DNA from: Octopus sinensis
Lineage: Eukaryota
Assembly (NCBI RefSeq): GCF_006345805.1
Contig: NC_042997.1
Coordinates: 133,486,001-133,550,000 of the forward strand
DNA: 64,000 nucleotides
Direction: 5' to 3'
The notes beneath the pieces are model-generated. The model saw nothing but the letters and a program-made list of their open reading frames with translations, searched no databases and was not told where the DNA came from. A program made the translations under genes and the position numbers. Positions 1 to 57,474 of the stretch are shown here, one piece after another (within the stretch, counting starts at the first letter, position 1; each line of letters opens with the position of its first letter).

Positions 1-20
1 ATAATATATATATATATATA

Positions 21-440
21 GGCGCAGGAGTGGCTGTGTGGTAAGTAGCTTGCTTACCAACCACATGGTTCCGGGTTCAGTCCCACAGCGTGGCATCTTG
101 GGCAAGTGTCTTCTGCTATAGCCCCGGGCCGACCAATGCCTTGTGAGTGGATTTGGTAGACGGAAACTGAAAGAAGCCTGTCATATATATGTATATATAT
201 ATATATATATATATGTGGGGGGGGTTCTGTGTCTGTGTTTGTCCCCCTAGCATTGCTTGACAACCGATGCTGGTGTGTTTACGTCCCCGTCACTGAGCGG
301 TTCGGCAAAAGAGCCCGATAGAATAAGTACTGGGTTTACAAAGAATAAGTCCCGGGGTCGATTTGATCGACTATAGGCGGTGCTCCAGCATGGCCGCAGT
401 CAAATGACTGAAACAAGTAAAAGAGTAAAAGAGTAAAGAG
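21..440 (+). mobile_element. tRNA-derived SINE family A (CORE-like, octopus OR-type), full length
   Basis: A box TGGCTGTGTGG, B box GGTTCAGTCCC, CORE-like CTTGGGCAAGTGTCTT, internal (TA)n, 3' tail (GTAAAAGA)n; many near-identical copies in the window. Confidence 0.9.
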
Positions 441-536
441 CATATATATATAAGGATAAGATCGTTATTTAAAATACCGATCGTATCAGGTAGCTTGCAT
501 GGGAATATAAACCTCATAGGTAATAATTATTGTTAA

Positions 537-2380: not shown

Positions 2381-3258
2381 AAATATTCTATATTATTTGG
2401 AAATCTTCTGTAGTTAAATACTGCGTTACCGAATTGTAACGCCTTTGTAAATGTAGCTACATCTGAAGATAAAGATGTGATACATCTACTAACTTTAGCA
2501 TTTAAATTACGGATATTAGTTAGATAATTAGAATCCTTATTGACATAAAGTAATCTTGGATAACAATATTATAAAGAGATAGTTTATTTGCGTCTAAATC
2601 TAGTGTTAATTAAAAAAGAAAATAACTTTGCAAGGTCTGCTCTCTTCTGTAATTTTTGAATCAATATCTATAAATCTGAAATGAGAAAAGTTTATTTGTC
2701 TGGTTTTGGCACTGGAACGGGTTAAAGGGCACTCGATCTCGTCGGGACAGGTAAAATGAGGTGAGAATGTCAGTGGGCTAGGTTAGAAATCCCTATCTTA
2801 AAAGGTGTGGTTACTAGGGCAAAAAACGCACACTCTGACAAGTCTCCTCTCATTCTCTTATCTGCATGTCTTCCTCTGTCTCTCTCTGTTTCCTCCCTTC
2901 CCATCACTTTCTCTCTATAAGGACGTTTGACAGATACTACTATCTTTCCCCACCGCCTTCGCCAGCGCTATCACTCTTTCCCTCACCGCCTCCCCCTCTC
3001 TCTCTGTACGTCTGTCTGCATTCATACAGAGTTTTATTATCGTCACAACCACCACACAATCATGAGAACAAATATTATGAATCAGATATTTATTGGGTTA
3101 ATTCATATATGTGTGTGTGTGTGTCTGTATCTATATATAAATATGTATATATAATGTATATACATACAATGTGTATATATCTCTGTATATATATATATAT
3201 ATATATATAATTTGTATACATTTGTATATATAATGCTTACACACACACACACACATAA

Positions 3259-3291
<33 letters not shown>

Positions 3292-3453
3292 AAAACAAAG
3301 ATAAATGCGATACAATAAAATTAATTATAATCGCCGGTGTACCAGTACACGCCATATATTATACATATATCATTACATTCAAGGCGAAGAGTGCACTAGA
3401 TACACAATAGCTGGATAAATTTAGTGAGATGAAAATTAAAAACTTTTACAAAC

Positions 3454-3544
3454 TTAACTTTTCTTATACTGCAGTTTCGCCAAATTCAGTAATAAAAATA
3501 GTATTTATTTACTCAGGCTGGCTCTTCAGTAAGATTCCTGTTAA
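3454..3544 (-). ncRNA. Type I hammerhead ribozyme, copy 1
   Basis: Minus strand UUAAC-AGGAA-UCUUA CUGAAGA GCCAG...UUGGC GAA AC-UGCA-GU A^UAAGA-AAA-GUUAA: canonical core, stems I-III paired, GUA cleavage triplet. Confidence 0.88.
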
Positions 3545-3857
3545 TGATGGGAAGACCATATCAATAGACCCATGTGGTCTATCGAAATGCTCTTCTAAAC
3601 TATTCAAAACACTGCGCAGACTCAGAACAAACCCGACAAAATAGGGGATTGTGGTATATCGTCTAACGGTCAGAAATTTATCGAGAGAATATGTAAACAA
3701 AGATAAATGCGATACAATAAAATTAATTATAATCGCCAGTGTACCAGTACACGCCATATATTATACATATATCATTACATTCAAGGCGAAGAGTGCACTA
3801 GATACACAATAGCTGGATATAAATTTAGTGAGATGAAAATTAAAAACTTTTACAAAC

Positions 3858-3948
3858 TTAACTTTTCTTATACTGCAGTTTCGCCAAATTCAGTAATAAA
3901 AATAGTATTTATTTACTCAGGCTGGCTCTTCAGTAAGATTCCTGTTAA
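3858..3948 (-). ncRNA. Type I hammerhead ribozyme, copy 2
   Basis: Identical to 3454-3544, offset 404 nt. Confidence 0.88.
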
Positions 3949-4133
3949 TGATGGGAAGACCATATCAATAGACCCATGTGCGTCTATCGAAATGCTCTAT
4001 ATATATATATAATGCGTATATATGTACATATATATATTTAATGCGTATATATATATATATAGACCATGTGCGTCTATCGAAATGCTCTATATATATATAA
4101 TGCGTATATATGTACATATATATATTTAATGCG

Positions 4134-4168
<35 letters not shown>

Positions 4169-4224
4169 GAAAAATACAAACTGGGACAAGAACGTAAAAC
4201 ATTTAGAAGACGATACAAAAAACA

Positions 4225-5473
4225 CGTGTGCATTATGTGGTCGGTTGAGCTGAAAATATGCACACATTTGTTAAAAGTGCTGGCGAGTTTGCATGGCAAC
4301 TATTTTTTTTCCTCAAATGAAAAGCGTAATCTCTAGGACAAAATTCCTCACCTTTTAAAATGTGGCCCGATTACACCCGAATGAAATCGGCTTATATTAA
4401 CCAAATAAGTAAAACAATGAAAAACTAGGCCATTTTAATCCCAAGTAAGGTCGGGTATCTCTGTAGGTCTACTACATATTTGTGAAAATGGCAGATGTTG
4501 TCTCACAAGCAGTTATACAGGCAAAAGTGTTAGTAAATATGGTAGGATTCAGTTGAAAATTTGCACACCTATATTAAAAATTCTGGTGAGTTTGCATGGC
4601 AACTTTGAGTTTGCTCAATTGAAAGGTGTGGCTTCTAGGGCAAAATTCCTCATCTTTAAAGTGTGGCCCGCGTAGACCCGAATGAAATCGAGTTATAATA
4701 CCGAAACAAATAAAACAATGATAAACTATTTTAATCCCGAGCAAGTCCGGGCTTCTCTGCTATCTATATATATATAAGAGGCTTTGGGACAAAATTGTGT
4801 GCACGTTTTGCTACATCAGAGGTTGGTGGCCACACCAGTGATCAGATCGAACTGAAAATTGACACAGGCATAGAAGGCGTAATGAGGCAGAGTTGAGTAG
4901 GTTAAAACTCACCATCTGGAAAGATGCGGTTGCTATGGTGAGAAGATTCAAGGGGGCTCTAAGCCCCTCCAGATTGGCATCTAATCCTATCTATAAAATG
5001 AAGAAGGCGAACGTTGATACAAATTAGATTTTTATGTAAAAAGGGGTCTAAATGGGGCTGGAAGGGGATTCAAATTTACAGGAGGGGTTAGAAATTGATT
5101 GGGAGACGTTTTGTGGCGCTACAGTGGTTGCTTTGGTGTGAAAACTGGGATTTTATTGATTTTGGGGGACACTTGGTGGTCTAGATCGGACACCTCTTGC
5201 CCGATTTCAATCAAATTTTCAACATGGTAAAGTGGAAGCGGATTTGTAATTTAAACTAGATTTATAAAAAAAATCTAATTGTTTTTATAAATGGCAGAGA
5301 GATAGATAGAGAAAGATAAAGAGTAAGAGAAAGCGAGGGAAGTCCGAAAGGAAGAGTAAGAGAGTGGAAAAATGAGAAAGGATAGAGAAACAAAGAGGGA
5401 GAATGTGGCGATAAGAAACAGAAAGTAACAACCACAACCTCACCCGCGCGTAGAGCGGGTCACCTTAAGCTAG
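4225..5473 (+). mobile_element. Head-to-tail cluster of three non-autonomous Helitrons
   Basis: Units start TC (4468 TCTACTAC, 4763 TCTATATA) and end in a GC hairpin plus CTAG-like motif (CCCGAGCAAGTCCGGG..CTGCTA; ACCCGC..GCGGGT..CTAG|T at 5470-5474); 4240-4467 and 4545-4762 are diverged copies. Confidence 0.7.
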
Positions 5474-6015: not shown

Positions 6016-6573
6016 TAATACCTCGCCATACCGCGGCTCACCTATCGCGTCGATTCCTCCGTGGTGTTGTTTTATATATATAATAAAATAAATATATACA
6101 AATTCTAAAAATAATTTTGTGGTAAGTAGCTTGCTTACCAACCACATGGTTCCGGGTTCAGTCCCACTGCATGGCACCTTCGGCATGTGTCTTCTACTAT
6201 AGCCTTGGGCCAACCAAAGCCTTCTGAGTAAATTTGGTAGACGGAAACTAAAAGAAGCCCGTCGTATATATGTATGTATATGTGTGTGTTTGTGTGTCTG
6301 CGTTTGTCCCCCAACATCGCTTGACAACCCATGCTGGAGTGTTTACGTCCTGTAAATTAGCAGTTCGGTAAAAGAGGCCGATAGAATAAGTACTAGGCTC
6401 ACAAAGAATAAGTCCTGGGGTCGATTTGCTCGACTAAAGGCAGTGCTCCAGCATGGCCGCGGTCAAATGAGTGAAACAAGTAAAAGAGTATAATACTATT
6501 TCAATTTCACGGATTTTCACCTATCACGGTGGAGGCTGGAACGTAGCACCCGCGATAGTCGAGGGATTACTGT
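6016..6573. mobile_element. Pogo/Tigger-like MITE interrupted by a family A SINE (6118-6490)
   Basis: End CGCGATAGTCGAGGGATTACTG-TA; both halves match the uninterrupted copy at 12067-12277. Confidence 0.6.
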
Positions 6574-7235: not shown

Positions 7236-7281
<46 letters not shown>

Positions 7282-7285
<4 letters not shown>

Positions 7286-7444
7286 TACGAGTGGCTGTGT
7301 AGTAAGTAGCTTGCTTACAAACCGCATAGTTCCAGTTTCAGTCCCACTGCGTGGCACCTTGGGCAAGTGTCTTCTACTATAGCCTCAGGCCGAACAAATC
7401 CTTGTGAGTGGATTTGGTAGACGGAAACTGAAAAGAAGCCCGTC

Positions 7445-7521
<77 letters not shown>

Positions 7522-7752
7522 GTATGTTGTGTATATGCTTGTGTGCCTGTGTTTGTCCCCCAAGCGATGTTGACAACAGATGGTGGTGTGTTTATGTCCC
7601 CGTAACTTAGCTGTTCGGCAAAAGAAACCGACAGAATAAGTACTAGGCTTCCAAAGAATAAGTCCTGGGGTCGATTTGCTCGACTAAATGCGGTGCTCCA
7701 GCATGGCCACAGTCACATGACTGAAACAAGTAAAAGAGTAAAAGAGAGTAAA
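7282..7752 (+). mobile_element. SINE family A, full length
   Basis: Same head and tail; long internal (TA)n. Confidence 0.9.
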
Positions 7753-8340
7753 GAATATATATATATATATATATAATATATATATATATATATACACACA
7801 CGTAAATACACGTATTCACTCTCATGTAAGTGTGCACGCACGCACACACCAGAGGTGAGTAAAGCTTGATTCGACCGATTGTTATCGCATCATGTGCCTC
7901 TGTGGCAAATCAGTAAGAAAATACATTATAAAATTCTAAATGGTAACAAAAAAAGAAAAAGAAAAACTTAAACTTATCCACACTTATGTAACCGAAAAAT
8001 ATAATTAACGACATGCAGCGTTATTCTTCCTTACTTTTAGATGAATTGGCAAGACTTGAAACGTTGCTAAGTGTCTCCAACGAAATACATCTATCACTTT
8101 AAGACTTTAATAGCATCACAAACGCTTCTTTGAGTCAATCTATTTATCATAACACAAGCTCAATGTGTGTGAGTGTGTGTGTGTGCTTTGATTTCCTTTC
8201 AACTTCCAGTTGCATGATCATGTCTTTAAAATTAAAATGCTTTCGTTTCATTTTCAAATAAATTCTATTGTTTTACAATCTATGTTATAAATTCGGCAAT
8301 TCTATACATTTTGTTCTAAGGCAACATGTAATTGAACAAC

Positions 8341-33193: not shown

Positions 33194-34011
33194 ATAGGAA
33201 AAGGAAAGATCCAAAGAAGGGAAGGCGGAGGAAAAAAATTACCAACGGTACACACGCTGTCACATTTATATATATTTTCCCTTCCCTTCTTCCCTCTTTC
33301 TCCCTCCCTCCTTCCCTCTTCCCCTTCTCTCTGCTCCCTCACTCCCCTTCTCTCTCCCCCTCCCCCTCTTTCCTCCTTCCTCCCCTTCCTTCTCCCCTCC
33401 TCTCCTCTTCCCCCCTCATCCCCCTCTTCTTCCCCTCCCCCTCTTATCCTCACTACACCACACGACTTTACACATCACATCATATATGATGTGCCATACT
33501 AATACATACACCAACTAATACATACTAATACGTACTAATACATACTAATACATACTAATACATACACCAACCCTATACATACACACATCCAGACCACTCA
33601 TACGCACTTATACTCTCTCATACACACACACACACACTTATACATACTAATACGTACTAATACATACTAATACATACTAATACATACACCAACCCCATAC
33701 ATACGCCTGTCCAGACCTATCCTACGCACTAATACTCTCTCATACACACACACACACACACACCCTTATACATACTAATACATATTAATACATACACCAA
33801 CCCTATACATACACACGTCCAGACCCCTCCTACGCACTAATAGGTGGTCATTCAACCCTATTATCAACCCTATTATCTCCCCTTATTTCGCTCTCGCGTC
33901 TCATGTTTGATCTTTGACTTCTGGCCGAAATCAGATCGCTATGTTGATTCGTTAGTTACTGCACGCATTTTTTTTCTCTCCTTCTTTCTGTGTTTTTTTT
34001 CTCTCTGTGTA

Positions 34012-34049
34012 TCTTTCTGTTGAAGAGCGTAGGCTCGAAACGTTAAAGA
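34012..34049 (+). ncRNA. Minimal hammerhead motif with CUGUUGA core
   Basis: UCUUU CUGUUGA A GAGC-GUAG-GCUC GAA ACGU U^AAAGA. Confidence 0.7.
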
Positions 34050-34179
34050 CTTGTTTTATTTATATTTCCTGAGCGCCATACTAATACAATTGTTTGTTTG
34101 TTTTCCACCTGCCTTCGTCTTTTGTCTATTTTCATAAAGCTTCCCGTTATATATATATGTATATATATATATATATTCT

Positions 34180-45624: not shown

Positions 45625-46544
45625 TAAGCAAATTTGTTGAAAATGCACCTAAATTTGGAAAACTTGTAATTGTTTAAAATACATTTATTTATATATATAT
45701 ATACCAAACTAGTTTCAACAATATTTTTTTGTTTATCAATAGTAAAAGTTAAAAATTATGAATTAAGAAAACATCTTTAAAAGTTTCAACGTTGACAAAT
45801 TAAAACGTTCATAACAGACAAATTTAGAATTATGAATTAGGAGGACAGCTACAGAATTTTAATGTTGACAAGTTTAAATGTTCATAGCAGTCAATAATAT
45901 TAAAACTGTACATCAATTTGTTAGAACGTACAAAGCTCATTAGTGTTAGTAGTGATTGACAAGAAATGAATATCATCAAAGTTTCAGCCATACTGAGTTA
46001 AGAGGGGAAAAAATAAGGGAGAAATGAAGATAGTAAGAATGGGAAATTTGGTTTACAGTTTCCCTGATCCTCTTTCCGTGGGAGCTTTCGCGTGTAGCGG
46101 TTCGTTTTGGAATCACATGTATTTATAATTTTTCTCCGCGAGCGGACCTGATTTTTGATTCGTCAAAATACTGGTGACGTCTTGTTTTTCCGGCGGTCAA
46201 GCTTGTCGTTCTGTCTAGTTGGCTTTCCCTGTGGAGAACGGTCATCAGTCGTTCCGGTTGGCTGATTCTCTTAAAGGGTCATTTCATTGTATTTGCTGAA
46301 GTTTTCATCGGTCAGGAGTTAGGTGACTTCAGCAACTTGTGTTTGTAAAATTTCATTGGTCTAGAGGTAGGTGGCGTCGGTAACTGGTGTTTGTATGGTG
46401 ATTTGGAGTTGCGGCTTCCAAACCCGGGTAGAAGACTGTTACTAAAGTTTTTTTTTAATTGTTATTCCTGCTTTTTTTCTGTGAAGAAATTGAGTCTTTT
46501 TCCTTTTTCTCTTTACTGTTTTTTCTTCTTTCTAAAGGATATTC

Positions 46545-47853
46545 AGGCATATATTTTTTAATCAGTATGCTTTCTTTATTTAAACGGAATTGGGTTGAAA
46601 TATTAACAGAGAGGGAAGGTTTGGTATTTCGGGTTTATGTCTACGGGGCATTGGTCTAGGTGCTTGCTTACTGGAATTTTCCTAGTCGTAGGGTCCCGGA
46701 TTTGTTAACTGTGCACCGTAAGTCTATCCTTCAAAGTTCACCTATGTAGGCCCCACCAAACGCTCCACATTTGAGAACATAGATTAGGTTCTTCGAAGCA
46801 CAGGTGAAGTGATTTTGTATGGTAAAAGTTTCACCTGACTTAAATTTGTGTGTTGAACCCTCTAAGAGGAAGTTGCAAGTTCTGTAGTTAGGGCGGTTGC
46901 ATTTTTTGACTAGTGGGGTTGTATTTTTGGTGGGTAATTTGACGCTGGTGAGTAACTTTTTAGATATTGCGGTTGTCTCTTACCTTTAACAATCCTATGT
47001 AATTCCAGTGTGATTCATTTGCAAGTCCTTTATAAGGAGGGGTATGTTTTGGTGGATGATGTTGTATGCTTCCATGTTTCTTGGATCGTGTGTTGATGCG
47101 TAAGATAGAGTTTTAAGCGTGTCGTGTTTTCTTGTTTTCCGTAACTCTTGGATGTCTGTCATTTTTGCACGTTGTATTCCGCTTTTGACTGGCCGATATT
47201 TTCTGTCTAGCAATATGTTTTAAAGTTTTTGGAGTCATTTTTCTCGGGTTTCCGGATTTGATTAAGTTGAACGCTATATTTATTTCAGTATGTTTTGGGT
47301 AGCAGGAGGAGAATAGAAGATATTGTTTTGAGTTCGTTTGTTTGAGGAAGATGTCGGTTTCAATTTCAGTATCTCTCTTTATGATTAAGATGTCCAGGAA
47401 GGGTAGTTGTTTGTGACTGTAATCCATTGTGAACTGGATACTGTGGTTAATGCTGTTGCTTAGGTTTTCACATTTTGAGAGTTGTTCAAGGTTATGTGGC
47501 CACAGGATAAAACAGTCATCCAGGTAGCGTTTCCAGTTGCTGAGTAAGTATTTTTGGAAGTTGTCTCCAAATTTCAGTCTAGCGTGTTTGGATATTTGAA
47601 CTTCCAAGTATGCCATGACAAGGTTGGCAAAAGCAGGGGCTACCCTCGTTCCCATCGCCGTGTCCGATTATTGTCTATAAGTGTTCTCGTTGAAGCTGAA
47701 GAAGTTGTTCTGTAAGATGAATTTTATTCTTTCAACGATGAATTCTTTTCCGATTCGGTCAGGAATATCATTTGGAAATTTTCCCAGTCAGTATTGTATG
47801 GCTATTATTCCGTATCCGTGAGGAATCAAGGTGTAGAGGTTTATTACATCGAA
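46545..47853 (-). pseudogene. Penelope-like element reverse transcriptase + GIY-YIG endonuclease (Neptune-like), decayed
   Basis: FDVINLYT...QxSDTAMGTRVAPAFANL...WKRYLDDCF...LPFLDILI; then KKCNRPNYRTCNFL..FTCASKNLIYVLKC..AYIGE..RLTVH..SKHL; stops and frameshifts. Confidence 0.88.
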
Positions 47854-48297
47854 TAAAACCCGTAGGGAGTCCTTGCTGGTTTTGTTCAGGAGATGGTTCG
47901 AGATGGGCTGGACTTTTTAAACATCTTCACCCCGATAGCAGTGACCAGGGATGTGGTCCGGGGGCCAAGAACGCCGGGAGTCTCCACTGCCACAGGTTCG
48001 AACATAAGTCTGTCAGTGAGCGACAGATACCTTCACAAACGCCCTTGACGATCATGTGTTGTCTTGCTCTCCAGAGTGATTTTGGGCAATGACACGTGAC
48101 GCATTGTGTCCAAAATATGATAGCATTGTGGACTTGATCCTAGACAATAGGGGTATTTATTCTTTCAACTTTGGTCACTTTGTTTTTTCCTGTTTATTCT
48201 GTCCAATCTTCTAAAGATCTATCTTCCTCTCCATTGCTGTGTACTTTGTCCAGGTTTCTACCTTGTAGATAACAGTTGGCATATTTCAACAGTTTAC

Positions 48298-48333
48298 TAG
48301 CCTCGATTTTAGAAGCAGTGTTATGTTTTGAGT

Positions 48334-48373
<40 letters not shown>

Positions 48374-48408
48374 CTCAAAACATAACACTGCTTCTAAAAT
48401 TGAGGCTA
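48298..48408. repeat. 37-bp inverted repeat around (TA)n
   Basis: TAGCCTCGATTTTAGAAGCAGTGTTATGTTTTGAGTT vs AACTCAAAACATAACACTGCTTCTAAAATTGAGGCTA. Confidence 0.85.
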
Positions 48409-48599
48409 ACGTAATTCAATTAATAATGAAAGATATTATCTATAATAAAATATAAATTTAAATATATTATTAACATTGTACTAAAAATTTCTATACTAAA
48501 TAATTCACATTAAAACGACATTATTATTAATATTGTACTAAAAGTGTCTATATCAAATAATACACATTAAAAAATACATTAAAAAATACACAATATAAC

Positions 48600-48707
48600 G
48601 ATGACGCGCGTTTCGAGACTATGTGTACAAATCTACAATATCAAAATCGATAATCTCAAAAATTAATATTCCTTCTATCCAACGATACATAGCCACTCTT
48701 CAGGATT
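48600..48707 (-). ncRNA. Hammerhead motif with long stem II
   Basis: CUGAAGA GUGGCUAUGU...ACAUAGUCUC GAA AC-GCGC-GU C; stem I weak. Confidence 0.6.
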
Positions 48708-48962
48708 CTATAACATAAAATACATGTACAACATAAATGAAGACGTTATAATTACATTATACATTTATAAATAATTGATAAGATTTAACAGTATTAACGA
48801 AAAGTAGGAGCATCACTTATCTTATTGATGAGCACCAGTTAACTCCGCAAATTAAAAAGGTTCTGTCTCTTAATTCTATACATATTTATTATATCATGAA
48901 TTTTGATTTAGTATTACTAAACTAAGTTTGTTTTCCCCTGTTGCCTTGGAATTTTATGTTCC

Positions 48963-54464: not shown

Positions 54465-54501
54465 CATAATATATATAATATATATATATATTATATATAT
54501 A

Positions 54502-54775
54502 TACTTTATTTAAAGCAGCATAAAATTCAACAAAACTTGTTACTCTTAGTTTCCCGTTGCCGTTCATCGGACAGTTTTTGCTGTTACTCTGAGTTTCCGT
54601 TGCTGTTCATCGGACAGTTTTTGCTAGCAAAAACTGTCCGATGAACGGCAACGGGAAACTCAGAGTAACAGGTTTTGTTGAATTTTCTGCTGCTTTAAAT
54701 AATGCATATTACTCTACCACTGGTATTTGAGTACTCTTTTTTCCACCTTGTTTCACATTTATGTGTTTACTCCGG

Positions 54776-56272: not shown

Positions 56273-56339
<67 letters not shown>

Positions 56340-56508
56340 ATGTTTACATTATATATACGGCAAATAAGAAAATGGAGAGGATGCAAAAATGGCATACATC
56401 AGCTGGTAGACATTCTAGTATGTCTATTTATTCCAAAGTATTAGAAAGTATTAGAAGAATGCATACACATGTAATAACTATGTGTTACATACACATAGTT
56501 ACATACAT

Positions 56509-56849: not shown

Positions 56850-56955
56850 TAATATAATAAAAGGCTCCAAAATAAAGAAGCTTAGTGCTAGAGACACAAA
56901 GAGGGATAAATTCATAGAGAGAGTGAAATTCAAAAACATTTACCATTAACGATAT

Positions 56956-57035
56956 ATCCTGGGCTGATCAGTTTCTACCTCTTTCTAGCAAAACAGACAG
57001 AATATGTTTGCCAAGGCAAGGTTCGTCAGCGGGAC
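56956..57035 (-). ncRNA. Hammerhead motif, cleavage triplet mutated
   Basis: GUCCCG CUGACGA ACCU..GGCAAA...UUUGCU..AGGU A GAA AC-UGAUCA-GC C CAGGAU. Confidence 0.6.
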
Positions 57036-57474
57036 GCCTTCCTAATTCTAGATGCACAGAGCGTTAGACCACATGTCGATCTAACAATTTGTATATCTTA
57101 ACTTTTCAAATCTCTGCGCAGACGCAAAATATACCCGGCGACATAGGGCATGCCGGTAAAAAATTTTACGAACAAATTTATCAAGTAATATGTGAACATA
57201 ATCAAAAAGGGTAATAACACAGGTTATTATTACCAGTGGCCTAGCACATATATATATGTATGTATGTGTGTGTGTATGTATGTATATGTATATGTATATT
57301 TTACATAATAATATATATATGTAGTACATATATCAATATATATGTATGTGTGTGTGTGTATGTATGTATAATATATATGTAATATGTATGTATAATATAT
57401 ATAATATATATGTGCATACCTACCTATATCTATATATCTACATCTGTATATCAGTATATATATGTGAGTGTGTT

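What the first reader, a model, noticed from the sequence alone, without database searches (positions are those of the whole stretch)
3293..3998. 404-nt retrozyme-like cassette: tandem unit bounded by two intact, identical hammerhead ribozymes
Seen: a near-perfect direct repeat in (TA)n. Each copy has a complete minus-strand type I HHR: CUGAAGA core, GAAA, GUA cleavage site, palindromic UGCA loop III, and a stem I extended past an internal loop (UUAAC/GUUAA). Predicted cuts at 3871/3870 and 3467/3466 would release a 404-nt non-coding monomer. Known: tandem units of a few hundred nt delimited by type I HHRs are the architecture of metazoan non-LTR retrozymes, which yield circRNAs, and of Penelope pseudo-LTRs. 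Inference: this is a young self-excising, possibly circularising RNA element mobilised by a Penelope-like RT. I am not aware of a characterised one in cephalopods.
Basis: partly seen in the sequence, partly recalled or inferred. Interest (0 to 1): 0.85.

Follow-up and report, generated by a model that had tools for sequence, protein, structure and literature searches.

The report
Octopus hammerhead retrozyme in TA microsatellite
A 404-base non-coding repeat, inserted as 1.75 head-to-tail copies into a TA microsatellite of what is likely an octopus genome, carries two identical hammerhead RNA motifs that are predicted to cut out one unit, so it is likely a new member of the parasitic 'retrozyme' elements already known from mussels, corals and salamanders, with cutting, expression and circle formation still untested.

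Summary
Minus-strand 3998-3293 is 1.75 copies of a 404-nt unit (98.7% alike) between (TA)n runs. It has two identical type I hammerheads with predicted cuts at 3871/3870 and 3467/3466 (0 of 60 shuffles give a strict hit). Rfam misses them. The unit is a family: 20 of 24 listed runs (8 studies) hold it, and contigs of 4 of 4 laid runs close it head-to-tail with no listed branch into coding DNA. A 73%-alike monomer at 57 kb has a different permutation. The unit is non-coding. Folding favours a double hammerhead. A hairpin before the ribozyme keeps its pairs in relatives. It fits metazoan non-LTR retrozymes, likely moved by a Penelope-like (PLE) RT; a decayed Neptune-type PLE lies at 47 kb but is not sequence-related. 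Cleavage, expression and circles are not shown, and an uncleaved multimer template explains the layout as well. Hammerhead-like motifs occur at four loci in this window, and a mussel retrozyme is already characterised. Verdict: new member of a known kind, moderate interest.

The parts
3293..3998 (-). Whole insertion: 1.75 head-to-tail copies of a 404-nt non-coding unit
3695..3998 (-). Upstream, 5'-truncated copy (0.75 unit); begins 2 nt inside the foot of the conserved hairpin
3293..3694 (-). Downstream full unit; the 3' end lies 174 nt after the cut and joins (TA)n
3858..3948 (-). Type I hammerhead 1: CUGAAGA 3933-3927, long helix II 3926-3883, GAAA, self-complementary ACUGCAGU 3879-3872, predicted cut 3871/3870 after GUA
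3454..3544 (-). Type I hammerhead 2, identical; predicted cut 3467/3466
   Evidence: (D14)
3467..3870 (-). Predicted excised 404-nt monomer, 33.4% GC; closes head-to-tail in contigs of 4 of 4 runs laid
3595..3694 (-). 100-nt segment present once at this locus; best-conserved part in the 57-kb relative (72 of 97 identical); no protein match
3551..3595 (-). Strong hairpin just 5' of the ribozyme (-25.1 kcal/mol, z -5.3), ACAUG loop; pairs kept through base changes in relatives
   Evidence: pair changes read by eye
3709..3807 (-). Structured 3' domain before the insertion's 3' end (z -3.0); second copy at about 3307-3405; candidate RT-binding region (inference)
3239..3292 (.). (CA)n/(TA)n target flank at the 3' end; no target-site duplication can be discerned in the microsatellite
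3968..4165 (.). 5' flank: (TA)n-rich run with an 88-bp tandem duplication that copies about 30 nt of the element's 5' end
56884..57247 (-). Diverged relative: about one monomer, 288 of 395 identical, different permutation, decayed hammerhead (core at 57029, palindrome CUGAUCAG), flanked by TA/CA microsatellites
46542..47955 (-). Context, not part of the element: decayed, 5'-truncated RT + Cys linker + GIY-YIG Penelope-like element with several stops and frame breaks; no sequence link to the unit

Best explanation
This is a non-coding 404-nt repeat unit with two intact type I hammerhead motifs, likely a non-LTR retrozyme whose transcript is predicted to cut itself as a double hammerhead, would be ligated into a circle, and would be copied into (TA)n sites by a borrowed Penelope-like reverse transcriptase. 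Shown: the tandem, the two motifs, absence of coding remnants, a head-to-tail family in four studies, a relative with another permutation, and (TA)n flanks. Predicted by folding: helix III of a single motif (A-U, C-G, UGCA loop) does not form, whereas the two ACUGCAGU palindromes pair into an 8-bp helix. Cutting would therefore need two units, and a monomer would be spared re-cutting. Inferred from the described families: read-through transcription, ligation of the 5'-OH and cyclic-phosphate ends by a host RtcB-type ligase, nicking of (TA)n by a GIY-YIG endonuclease, internal initiation about 174 nt past the cut, and copying for more than one round, stopping at the foot of the strong hairpin. 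My odds by step: real hammerhead family 0.97; stand-alone non-coding unit 0.85; PLE-mobilised 0.8; cleaves in vivo 0.6; circles are the template 0.5.
For: Two complete motifs, 0 of 60 shuffles with a strict hit. All junctions of the 404-nt cycle are spanned by contigs. In run X12 one 275-nt contig crosses the 3'-end/spacer junction 3694/3695, another crosses 3593, and a third the 3870>3467 joint. X1, X16 and X18 each give one 433-434-nt contig, equal to the unit plus a 30-nt self-overlap. The 12 loose ends shown (of 14; at most 30 letters each) read as diverged relatives or (TA)n, none as unrelated sequence. Relatives keep GAAA-CUGCAG-U and differ at the cleavage base (GUA vs GUC, both permitted) (read by eye). 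The 57-kb relative runs through the same junction (36 of 58 identical before it; 3 of 2000 shuffles and 1 of 4626 window pieces reach the score) but starts and ends at the unit's most TA-like patch, so the ends are permuted. An X18 contig joins (TA)n at the window's 3'-end site within 1 nt (this or another locus), and the X1 and X18 contigs both open at 3694. Double hammerhead costs 6.2 kcal/mol over the minimum vs 14.3 for two monomers; inter-unit helix III p about 0.6, monomer helix III p 0.0. No match of 22 PLE-type proteins in the unit at E<=1. Size, GC and layout match PMC7229834; (TA)n bias is described for Neptune and Naiad PLEs.
Against: Neither active fold is the predicted ground state: the cross-paired stems I have p about 0 and the double form lies 5-9 kcal/mol above the minimum. 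The isolated motif folds no better than shuffles (z -1.6), nor does the circle (z -1.5, 57% paired). In Xenopus 8 of 9 predicted dimer retrozymes did not cleave in vitro (10.64898/2026.07.22.740005). For an Anolis PLE, hammerhead cleavage was protein-dependent and dispensable for insertion, and uncut RNA was the main substrate (PMC11167929). No autonomous partner with a matching pLTR was found; the PLE in the window is unrelated to the unit. Self-closed contigs arise from genomic tandems as well as from circles, and the laid runs are only guessed to be RNA or DNA. Ten contig pieces and two loose ends were not shown, and a filter drops records.
Confidence: 0.55

Rival explanations
1. Same non-autonomous PLE-dependent element, but no circle: the PLE RT initiates internally on an uncut dimer or multimer transcript, and the hammerhead is a slow or protein-assisted relic of the parent pLTR.
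For: PMC11167929: internal initiation downstream of the hammerhead, cleavage dispensable, no RNA-seq reads ending at the cut site. A 1.75-mer with a 3' end 174 nt past the cut follows directly. Active fold not favoured; 8 of 9 Xenopus dimers inactive. Non-autonomous PLEs with head-to-tail copies are described in Chlamydomonas (PMC8557442).
Against: The core is intact in both copies and in the two relative fragments seen, with a permitted GUA/GUC change, and the palindrome is kept or replaced by another palindrome, which points to selection on cutting. A lone monomer cannot regain two units without a circle or a tandem source.
Confidence: 0.27
2. Terminal repeat of a coding PLE: a doubly truncated partial tandem, or a solo pLTR that duplicated locally into a minisatellite, as Li et al. 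propose for retrozyme birth.
For: PLE insertions are 5'-truncated partial tandems with hammerheads in the pLTR. Li et al. derive retrozymes from pLTRs by local amplification. No whole genome was available to look at other copies.
Against: The near-identical family closes as a 404-nt cycle in four studies with no listed branch into other sequence. The same junction exists in a 73%-alike relative. Both ends abut microsatellite, as for an insertion. No ORF remnant. The core lacks the extra base after CUGANGA typical of PLE minimal hammerheads.
Confidence: 0.15
3. Assembly artefact: one copy duplicated by mis-assembly in a microsatellite-rich region.
For: An adjacent 88-bp duplication. All four runs differ from the window at the same four places (+C 3576, +T 3592, A3738G, -2 at 3817), three of them indels, as sequencing errors would be. 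This locus's flanks were not tested with reads.
Against: The head-to-tail junction and the 100-nt segment between the repeats exist in contigs of four studies and in the 57-kb relative.
Confidence: 0.03

Closest known systems
Metazoan non-LTR retrozymes (Cervera and de la Pena 2020, PMC7229834; passages and parts 3-4 of 6 read; supplement not readable)
   Same: Short AT-rich non-coding tandem units with one type I hammerhead each; dimers to multimers; mussel units of 350-390 bp; canonical CUGANGA-G...C-GAAA core; 1-bp helix III with palindromic tetraloop as in axolotl HHR_Amex1, which cuts poorly as a monomer and well as a dimer.
   Different: 404 nt, at the upper edge of the 170-400 nt range. 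Helix II is extended by about 35 nt, so the usual loop 1/loop 2 contacts are not recognisable. Most invertebrate retrozyme hammerheads are said to work as monomers (PMC7761336); this one is predicted dimer-only. It sits in (TA)n and has a conserved upstream hairpin. RNA not shown.
Non-LTR retrozymes as non-autonomous PLE sequences (Li, Clavereau and Pollet 2026, 10.64898/2026.07.22.740005; parts 1-3 of 5 read; supplements closed)
   Same: Two consecutive complete hammerheads; co-occurrence with PLEs in the host; monomers and dimers.
   Different: That survey covers 31 vertebrates, 3 insects and 1 coral, no mollusc. It starts from TRF, which did not list this 1.75-mer. It favours local tandem expansion, whereas this locus looks like a dispersed insertion.
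Penelope-like element pLTRs with hammerheads (Cervera and de la Pena 2014, PMC4209133, parts 1-2 of 4 and supplement passages; Craig et al. 2021, PMC8557442, passages; Frangieh et al. 2024, PMC11167929, parts 1-2 of 4)
   Same: Partial tandem with a 5'-truncated upstream copy, AT-rich or microsatellite target, 3' end downstream of the hammerhead, long helix II, short helix I, palindromic helix III.
   Different: No RT-EN ORF between the repeats; no extra base between core positions 9 and 10.1; no matching autonomous element found; no 30-40 bp tail identified.

Membership tests
Metazoan non-LTR retrozyme | Type I hammerhead with complete core in each of two consecutive units | tested here: met
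   identical copies
Metazoan non-LTR retrozyme | Short tandem unit (about 170-400 nt), GC below 45% | tested here: met
   404 nt (edge of the range), 33.4% GC, 1.75 copies
Metazoan non-LTR retrozyme | No protein-coding capacity | tested here: met
   Longest ATG frames on the circle are 82 and 113 codons and span indels that all four runs lack; no tblastn match of 22 PLE-type proteins in the unit at E<=1
Metazoan non-LTR retrozyme | Repeated family that occurs head-to-tail apart from coding elements | tested here: met
   Closed cycle in 4 of 4 runs, relatives in 3 of them; stand-alone relative at 57 kb. Copy number not measured
Metazoan non-LTR retrozyme | Self-cleavage of the transcript | not testable with these tools
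   Folding only: dimer form favoured over monomers, neither is the minimum
Metazoan non-LTR retrozyme | Accumulation as circular RNA | not testable with these tools
   Only contigs were on offer; no holder on record as RNA
Metazoan non-LTR retrozyme | Highly self-paired monomer | tested here: inconclusive
   Circular fold -85.7 kcal/mol, z -1.5 against 40 shuffles, 57% paired
Metazoan non-LTR retrozyme | Absence of LTR-type PBS and PPT | not tested
   No tRNA-complement search was run
pLTR of a coding Penelope-like element | Repeats flank an RT + GIY-YIG ORF | tested here: not met
   Only 100 nt lie between the repeats; the sole PLE protein match in the window is at 46542-47955. Other genomic copies could not be mapped
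pLTR of a coding Penelope-like element | Minimal hammerhead with an extra base between positions 9 and 10.1 | tested here: not met
   CUGAAGA is followed directly by G10.1; long helix II and short helix I are shared
pLTR of a coding Penelope-like element | 5'-truncated partial tandem in AT-rich or microsatellite target | tested here: met
pLTR of a coding Penelope-like element | Optional 30-40 bp 3' tail | tested here: inconclusive
   Two end positions seen, about 75-95 nt apart, in different subfamilies
Rfam hammerhead families | Score at or above the gathering threshold | tested here: not met
   0 matches in the window; none among 35 matches at E<=10 in 3200-4200; the long helix II is a likely cause (inference)

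The most novel reading that the evidence does not exclude
Octopods host an active family of dimer-gated retrozymes, invisible to Rfam because of a long helix II, that spread by true retrotransposition from a circular RNA into (TA)n. Differently permuted insertions and a conserved ACAUG-loop hairpin would identify the cis signal and the Neptune-type PLE partner, making the open question of how animal retrozymes move directly testable.
Probability: 0.3. Interest if true: 0.55.

Novelty: new member of a known kind. Interest (0 to 1): 0.33.

Why it matters
It extends non-LTR retrozymes to cephalopods; none of my library searches returned a described octopus case, though subscription papers, Repbase, Dfam and one key supplement were out of reach. 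Its value is as a clean test case. Both ends are sharp, the family is young, relatives show permuted ends, and a conserved hairpin offers a handle to find the partner RT. The 2020 review notes that animal retrozymes show no motif pointing to their partner (PMC7761336), and whether they move through circles or only expand locally is still argued. Four hammerhead-like loci in 64 kb, all missed by Rfam, suggest such motifs are under-counted in this genome.

Tried and rejected
No whole genome is held, so genome-wide mapping was impossible. Rfam gave no hammerhead match. A ribozyme pattern found 0 matches in metagenome and viral contigs. Sequencing-run search: no RNA holder listed; this says nothing about expression. 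Contig depth was not used as copy number or expression level. Four PLE-type loci from metagenomes (L001-L004) held no hammerhead by my descriptor and no match to the unit. The unit shows no similarity above shuffles to the window's PLE, its 3' region, or the hammerhead segments at 48.6 and 55 kb. Pfam found nothing in the two PLE fragments themselves; identity rests on homologues. Weak tblastn hits at 57083-57196 (E 0.08-0.8) were judged chance. The pre-junction part of the 57-kb relative is not significant in a free local alignment (132 of 300 shuffles reach it), only when anchored. The constrained-fold figure used an off-by-one helix and was replaced; the relaxed motif scan printed nothing through a script fault and was redone. 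No Pol III box A/B or splice-donor consensus (recalled motifs) was found in the unit; the bacterial promoter scan is uninformative. Earlier scan notes had nothing on this genome or sequence. Lunse et al. 2017 is not held and is known to me only from a reference list.

Full report
1. What is in the sequence. On the minus strand, 3998 to 3293 reads as a 304-nt partial unit, a 100-nt segment present once, and a second copy of the partial unit. The repeats are 98.7% identical, with one substitution and two small indels; the 162 nt that hold the ribozymes are identical. In unit terms this is 1.75 copies of 404 nt. Both ends meet (TA)n, so no target-site duplication can be read. An 88-bp duplication at 3968-4149 repeats about 30 nt of the 5' end with its flank; it may be slippage or mis-assembly.

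2. The ribozyme. Each copy has UCUUA, CUGAAGA, a helix II closed by G10.1-C11.1, GAAA, CUGCAG, UA, then UAAGA. The descriptor found these 2 sites in 64 kb on both strands, and none in 60 block shuffles under the strict rule. Rfam reports no family at gathering score and no hammerhead among 35 weak matches; helix II carries an extended stem-loop of about 35 nt, which likely defeats the models (inference). Helix III in a single motif is two pairs under a UGCA loop and has probability 0.0 in the 706-nt transcript. The octamer ACUGCAGU is self-complementary, and the two copies pair with probability about 0.6. Forcing the double hammerhead costs 6.2 kcal/mol, one monomer 8.0 and two monomers 14.3. 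The dimer is thus the cheaper active form, but not the ground state: its cross-paired stems I have probability near 0. This matches the axolotl motif with a one-pair helix III, which cut 6% as a monomer and far better as a dimer (PMC7229834).

3. It is a family, and the unit closes on itself. No genome is held, so I used public runs. Of 24 runs listed, 20 from 8 studies hold 76-88% of the unit's sampled words; none is on record as RNA. I laid 4 of them, from 4 studies, on the predicted monomer 3467-3870. All four show the joint from 3870 back to 3467. X1, X16 and X18 each give one contig of 433-434 nt, which is the unit plus a 30-nt self-overlap. In X12 a 275-nt contig crosses the junction between the 3' end and the 100-nt segment, and other contigs cover the remaining junctions. 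The 12 loose ends shown (2 more and 10 contig pieces were not shown) read, by eye, as diverged relatives or (TA)n; none leads into unrelated sequence. All four runs differ from the window at the same four places, with a net length of 404 (403 in X16), so the window's few differences are private changes or errors. Self-closed contigs arise from genomic tandems as well as from circles, so this shows head-to-tail organisation, not a circular RNA.

4. Relatives. A monomer at 57247-56884 is 73% identical (288 of 395; score 286 vs shuffle maximum 137) and is also flanked by microsatellites. It starts before the 3'-end junction and runs through it (anchored test: 3 of 2000 shuffles, 1 of 4626 window pieces; not significant unanchored). 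Its ends fall at the unit's most TA-like patch (3772). Two insertions thus carry two permutations of one cyclic unit. In one search, two relative fragments keep GAAA-CUGCAG-U, one with GUC in place of GUA. One X18 contig joins (TA)n at the window's 3'-end site, and the X1 and X18 contigs both open at 3694, consistent with a recurrent end; it may be this locus or another. A hairpin just before the ribozyme (3595-3551, z -5.3) keeps its ACAUG loop and its stem in the 57-kb copy (A-U to U-A, G-U to G-C, C-G to U-G), in an X18 relative (A-U to U-G, G-U to A-U) and in X16 (G-U to G-C); these were read by eye. The insertion's 5' end lies at the foot of this hairpin.

5. Coding and partner. The longest frames on the circle, 82 and 113 codons, span indels that the runs lack, and 22 PLE-type proteins find nothing in the unit at E<=1. 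A decayed RT + Cys-linker + GIY-YIG element lies at 47955-46542. Its closest named relatives are from Octopus bimaculoides (80%), O. sinensis and Argonauta, which supports an octopod host; the linker fits the Neptune/Nematis type described. It shares no sequence with the unit, so it shows the kind of helper present, not the helper itself. A relaxed scan finds hammerhead-like motifs with long helix II and palindromic helix III at four loci (3529/3933, 48703, 55086, 57029) against a mean of 0.05 in 100 shuffles. The motif type is common here.

6. Mechanism. Most likely: read-through transcription of the minus strand; pairing of the two palindromes; release of a 404-nt monomer; ligation by a host RtcB-type ligase (shown in vitro for axolotl and mussel); capture by a PLE protein that nicks (TA)n and starts reverse transcription internally, 174 nt past the cut; copying for 1.75 rounds. 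The first steps are predicted, the later ones inferred. The main rival needs no circle: an Anolis PLE initiates internally on uncut RNA, and its hammerhead is protein-dependent and dispensable (PMC11167929), and 8 of 9 Xenopus dimers did not cleave in vitro. That work also found initiation at a site not homologous to the target, so the 4-nt AUAU match at the 3' junction here may be incidental. The plain pLTR reading and the artefact reading are less likely, for the reasons in sections 3 to 5.

7. Comparison and novelty. It works like a metazoan non-LTR retrozyme and meets every sequence-level feature that I tested, except that self-pairing is inconclusive; cleavage and circRNA could not be tested. 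It fails two features of a coding PLE pLTR. A mussel retrozyme of 350-390 bp is characterised, the giant squid paper lists 235 hammerhead-1 hits, and a 2026 preprint treats the class as non-autonomous PLE sequence. Five library searches with octopus or cephalopod terms returned no described octopus retrozyme; the 2020 supplement, the preprint's supplements, Repbase and Dfam could not be seen and may list one. Earlier scan notes report similar elements in other genomes; they are unchecked and were not used as support.

8. Verdict. Observation confirmed; interpretation partly supported. New member of a known kind, interest 0.33. The permuted insertions, the predicted dimer gating and the conserved hairpin make it a useful test case, not a new kind of element.

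Noticed in passing
window 48703-48597 (-), within 48373-48960: Separate decayed type I hammerhead (long helix II, CGCGCG palindrome, GUC) in a 590-nt segment between microsatellites, just upstream of the decayed PLE; unrelated in sequence to the unit. Whether it is that PLE's pLTR is open.
   Followed up: partly
window 48298-48333 and 48373-48408: 36-bp inverted repeat (97%) around a (TA)n run between that hammerhead segment and the PLE body.
   Followed up: no
window 55086-54978 (-): Hammerhead-like motif of the PLE minimal type (extra base after the core, long helix II, CGGCCG palindrome, 3-bp helix I). Its downstream 150 bp recurs at 56315-56477 and the element's other end at 33953-34155 (87%).
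   Followed up: partly
window 46542-47955 (-): Decayed 5'-truncated Penelope-like element with RT, Cys linker and GIY-YIG; intact homologues of 750-770 aa exist (P0004, P0005).
   Followed up: yes
window 3529, 3933, 48703, 55086, 57029: All hammerhead-like motifs found lie on the minus strand (4 loci; could be chance) and none is seen by Rfam.
   Followed up: no
window 4234-4773: Diverged direct repeat of about 302-bp period (about 80% alike) right of the element, ending at a TA run; no hammerhead detected.
   Followed up: partly
window 54499-54708: About 210-bp palindromic element (82% self-complementary) with a 43-bp internal duplication between (TA)n runs, MITE-like.
   Followed up: no
window 4-452, 1412-1862, 6085-6515, 7265-7765: Dispersed two-part repeat family split by microsatellites; resembles octopus tRNA-derived SINEs (label recalled, not tested).
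   Followed up: no
L001-L004: Metagenome contigs with PLE-type RT ORFs preceded by a separate upstream ORF with an RG-rich tail in three of the four; no hammerhead within the contigs.
   Followed up: no
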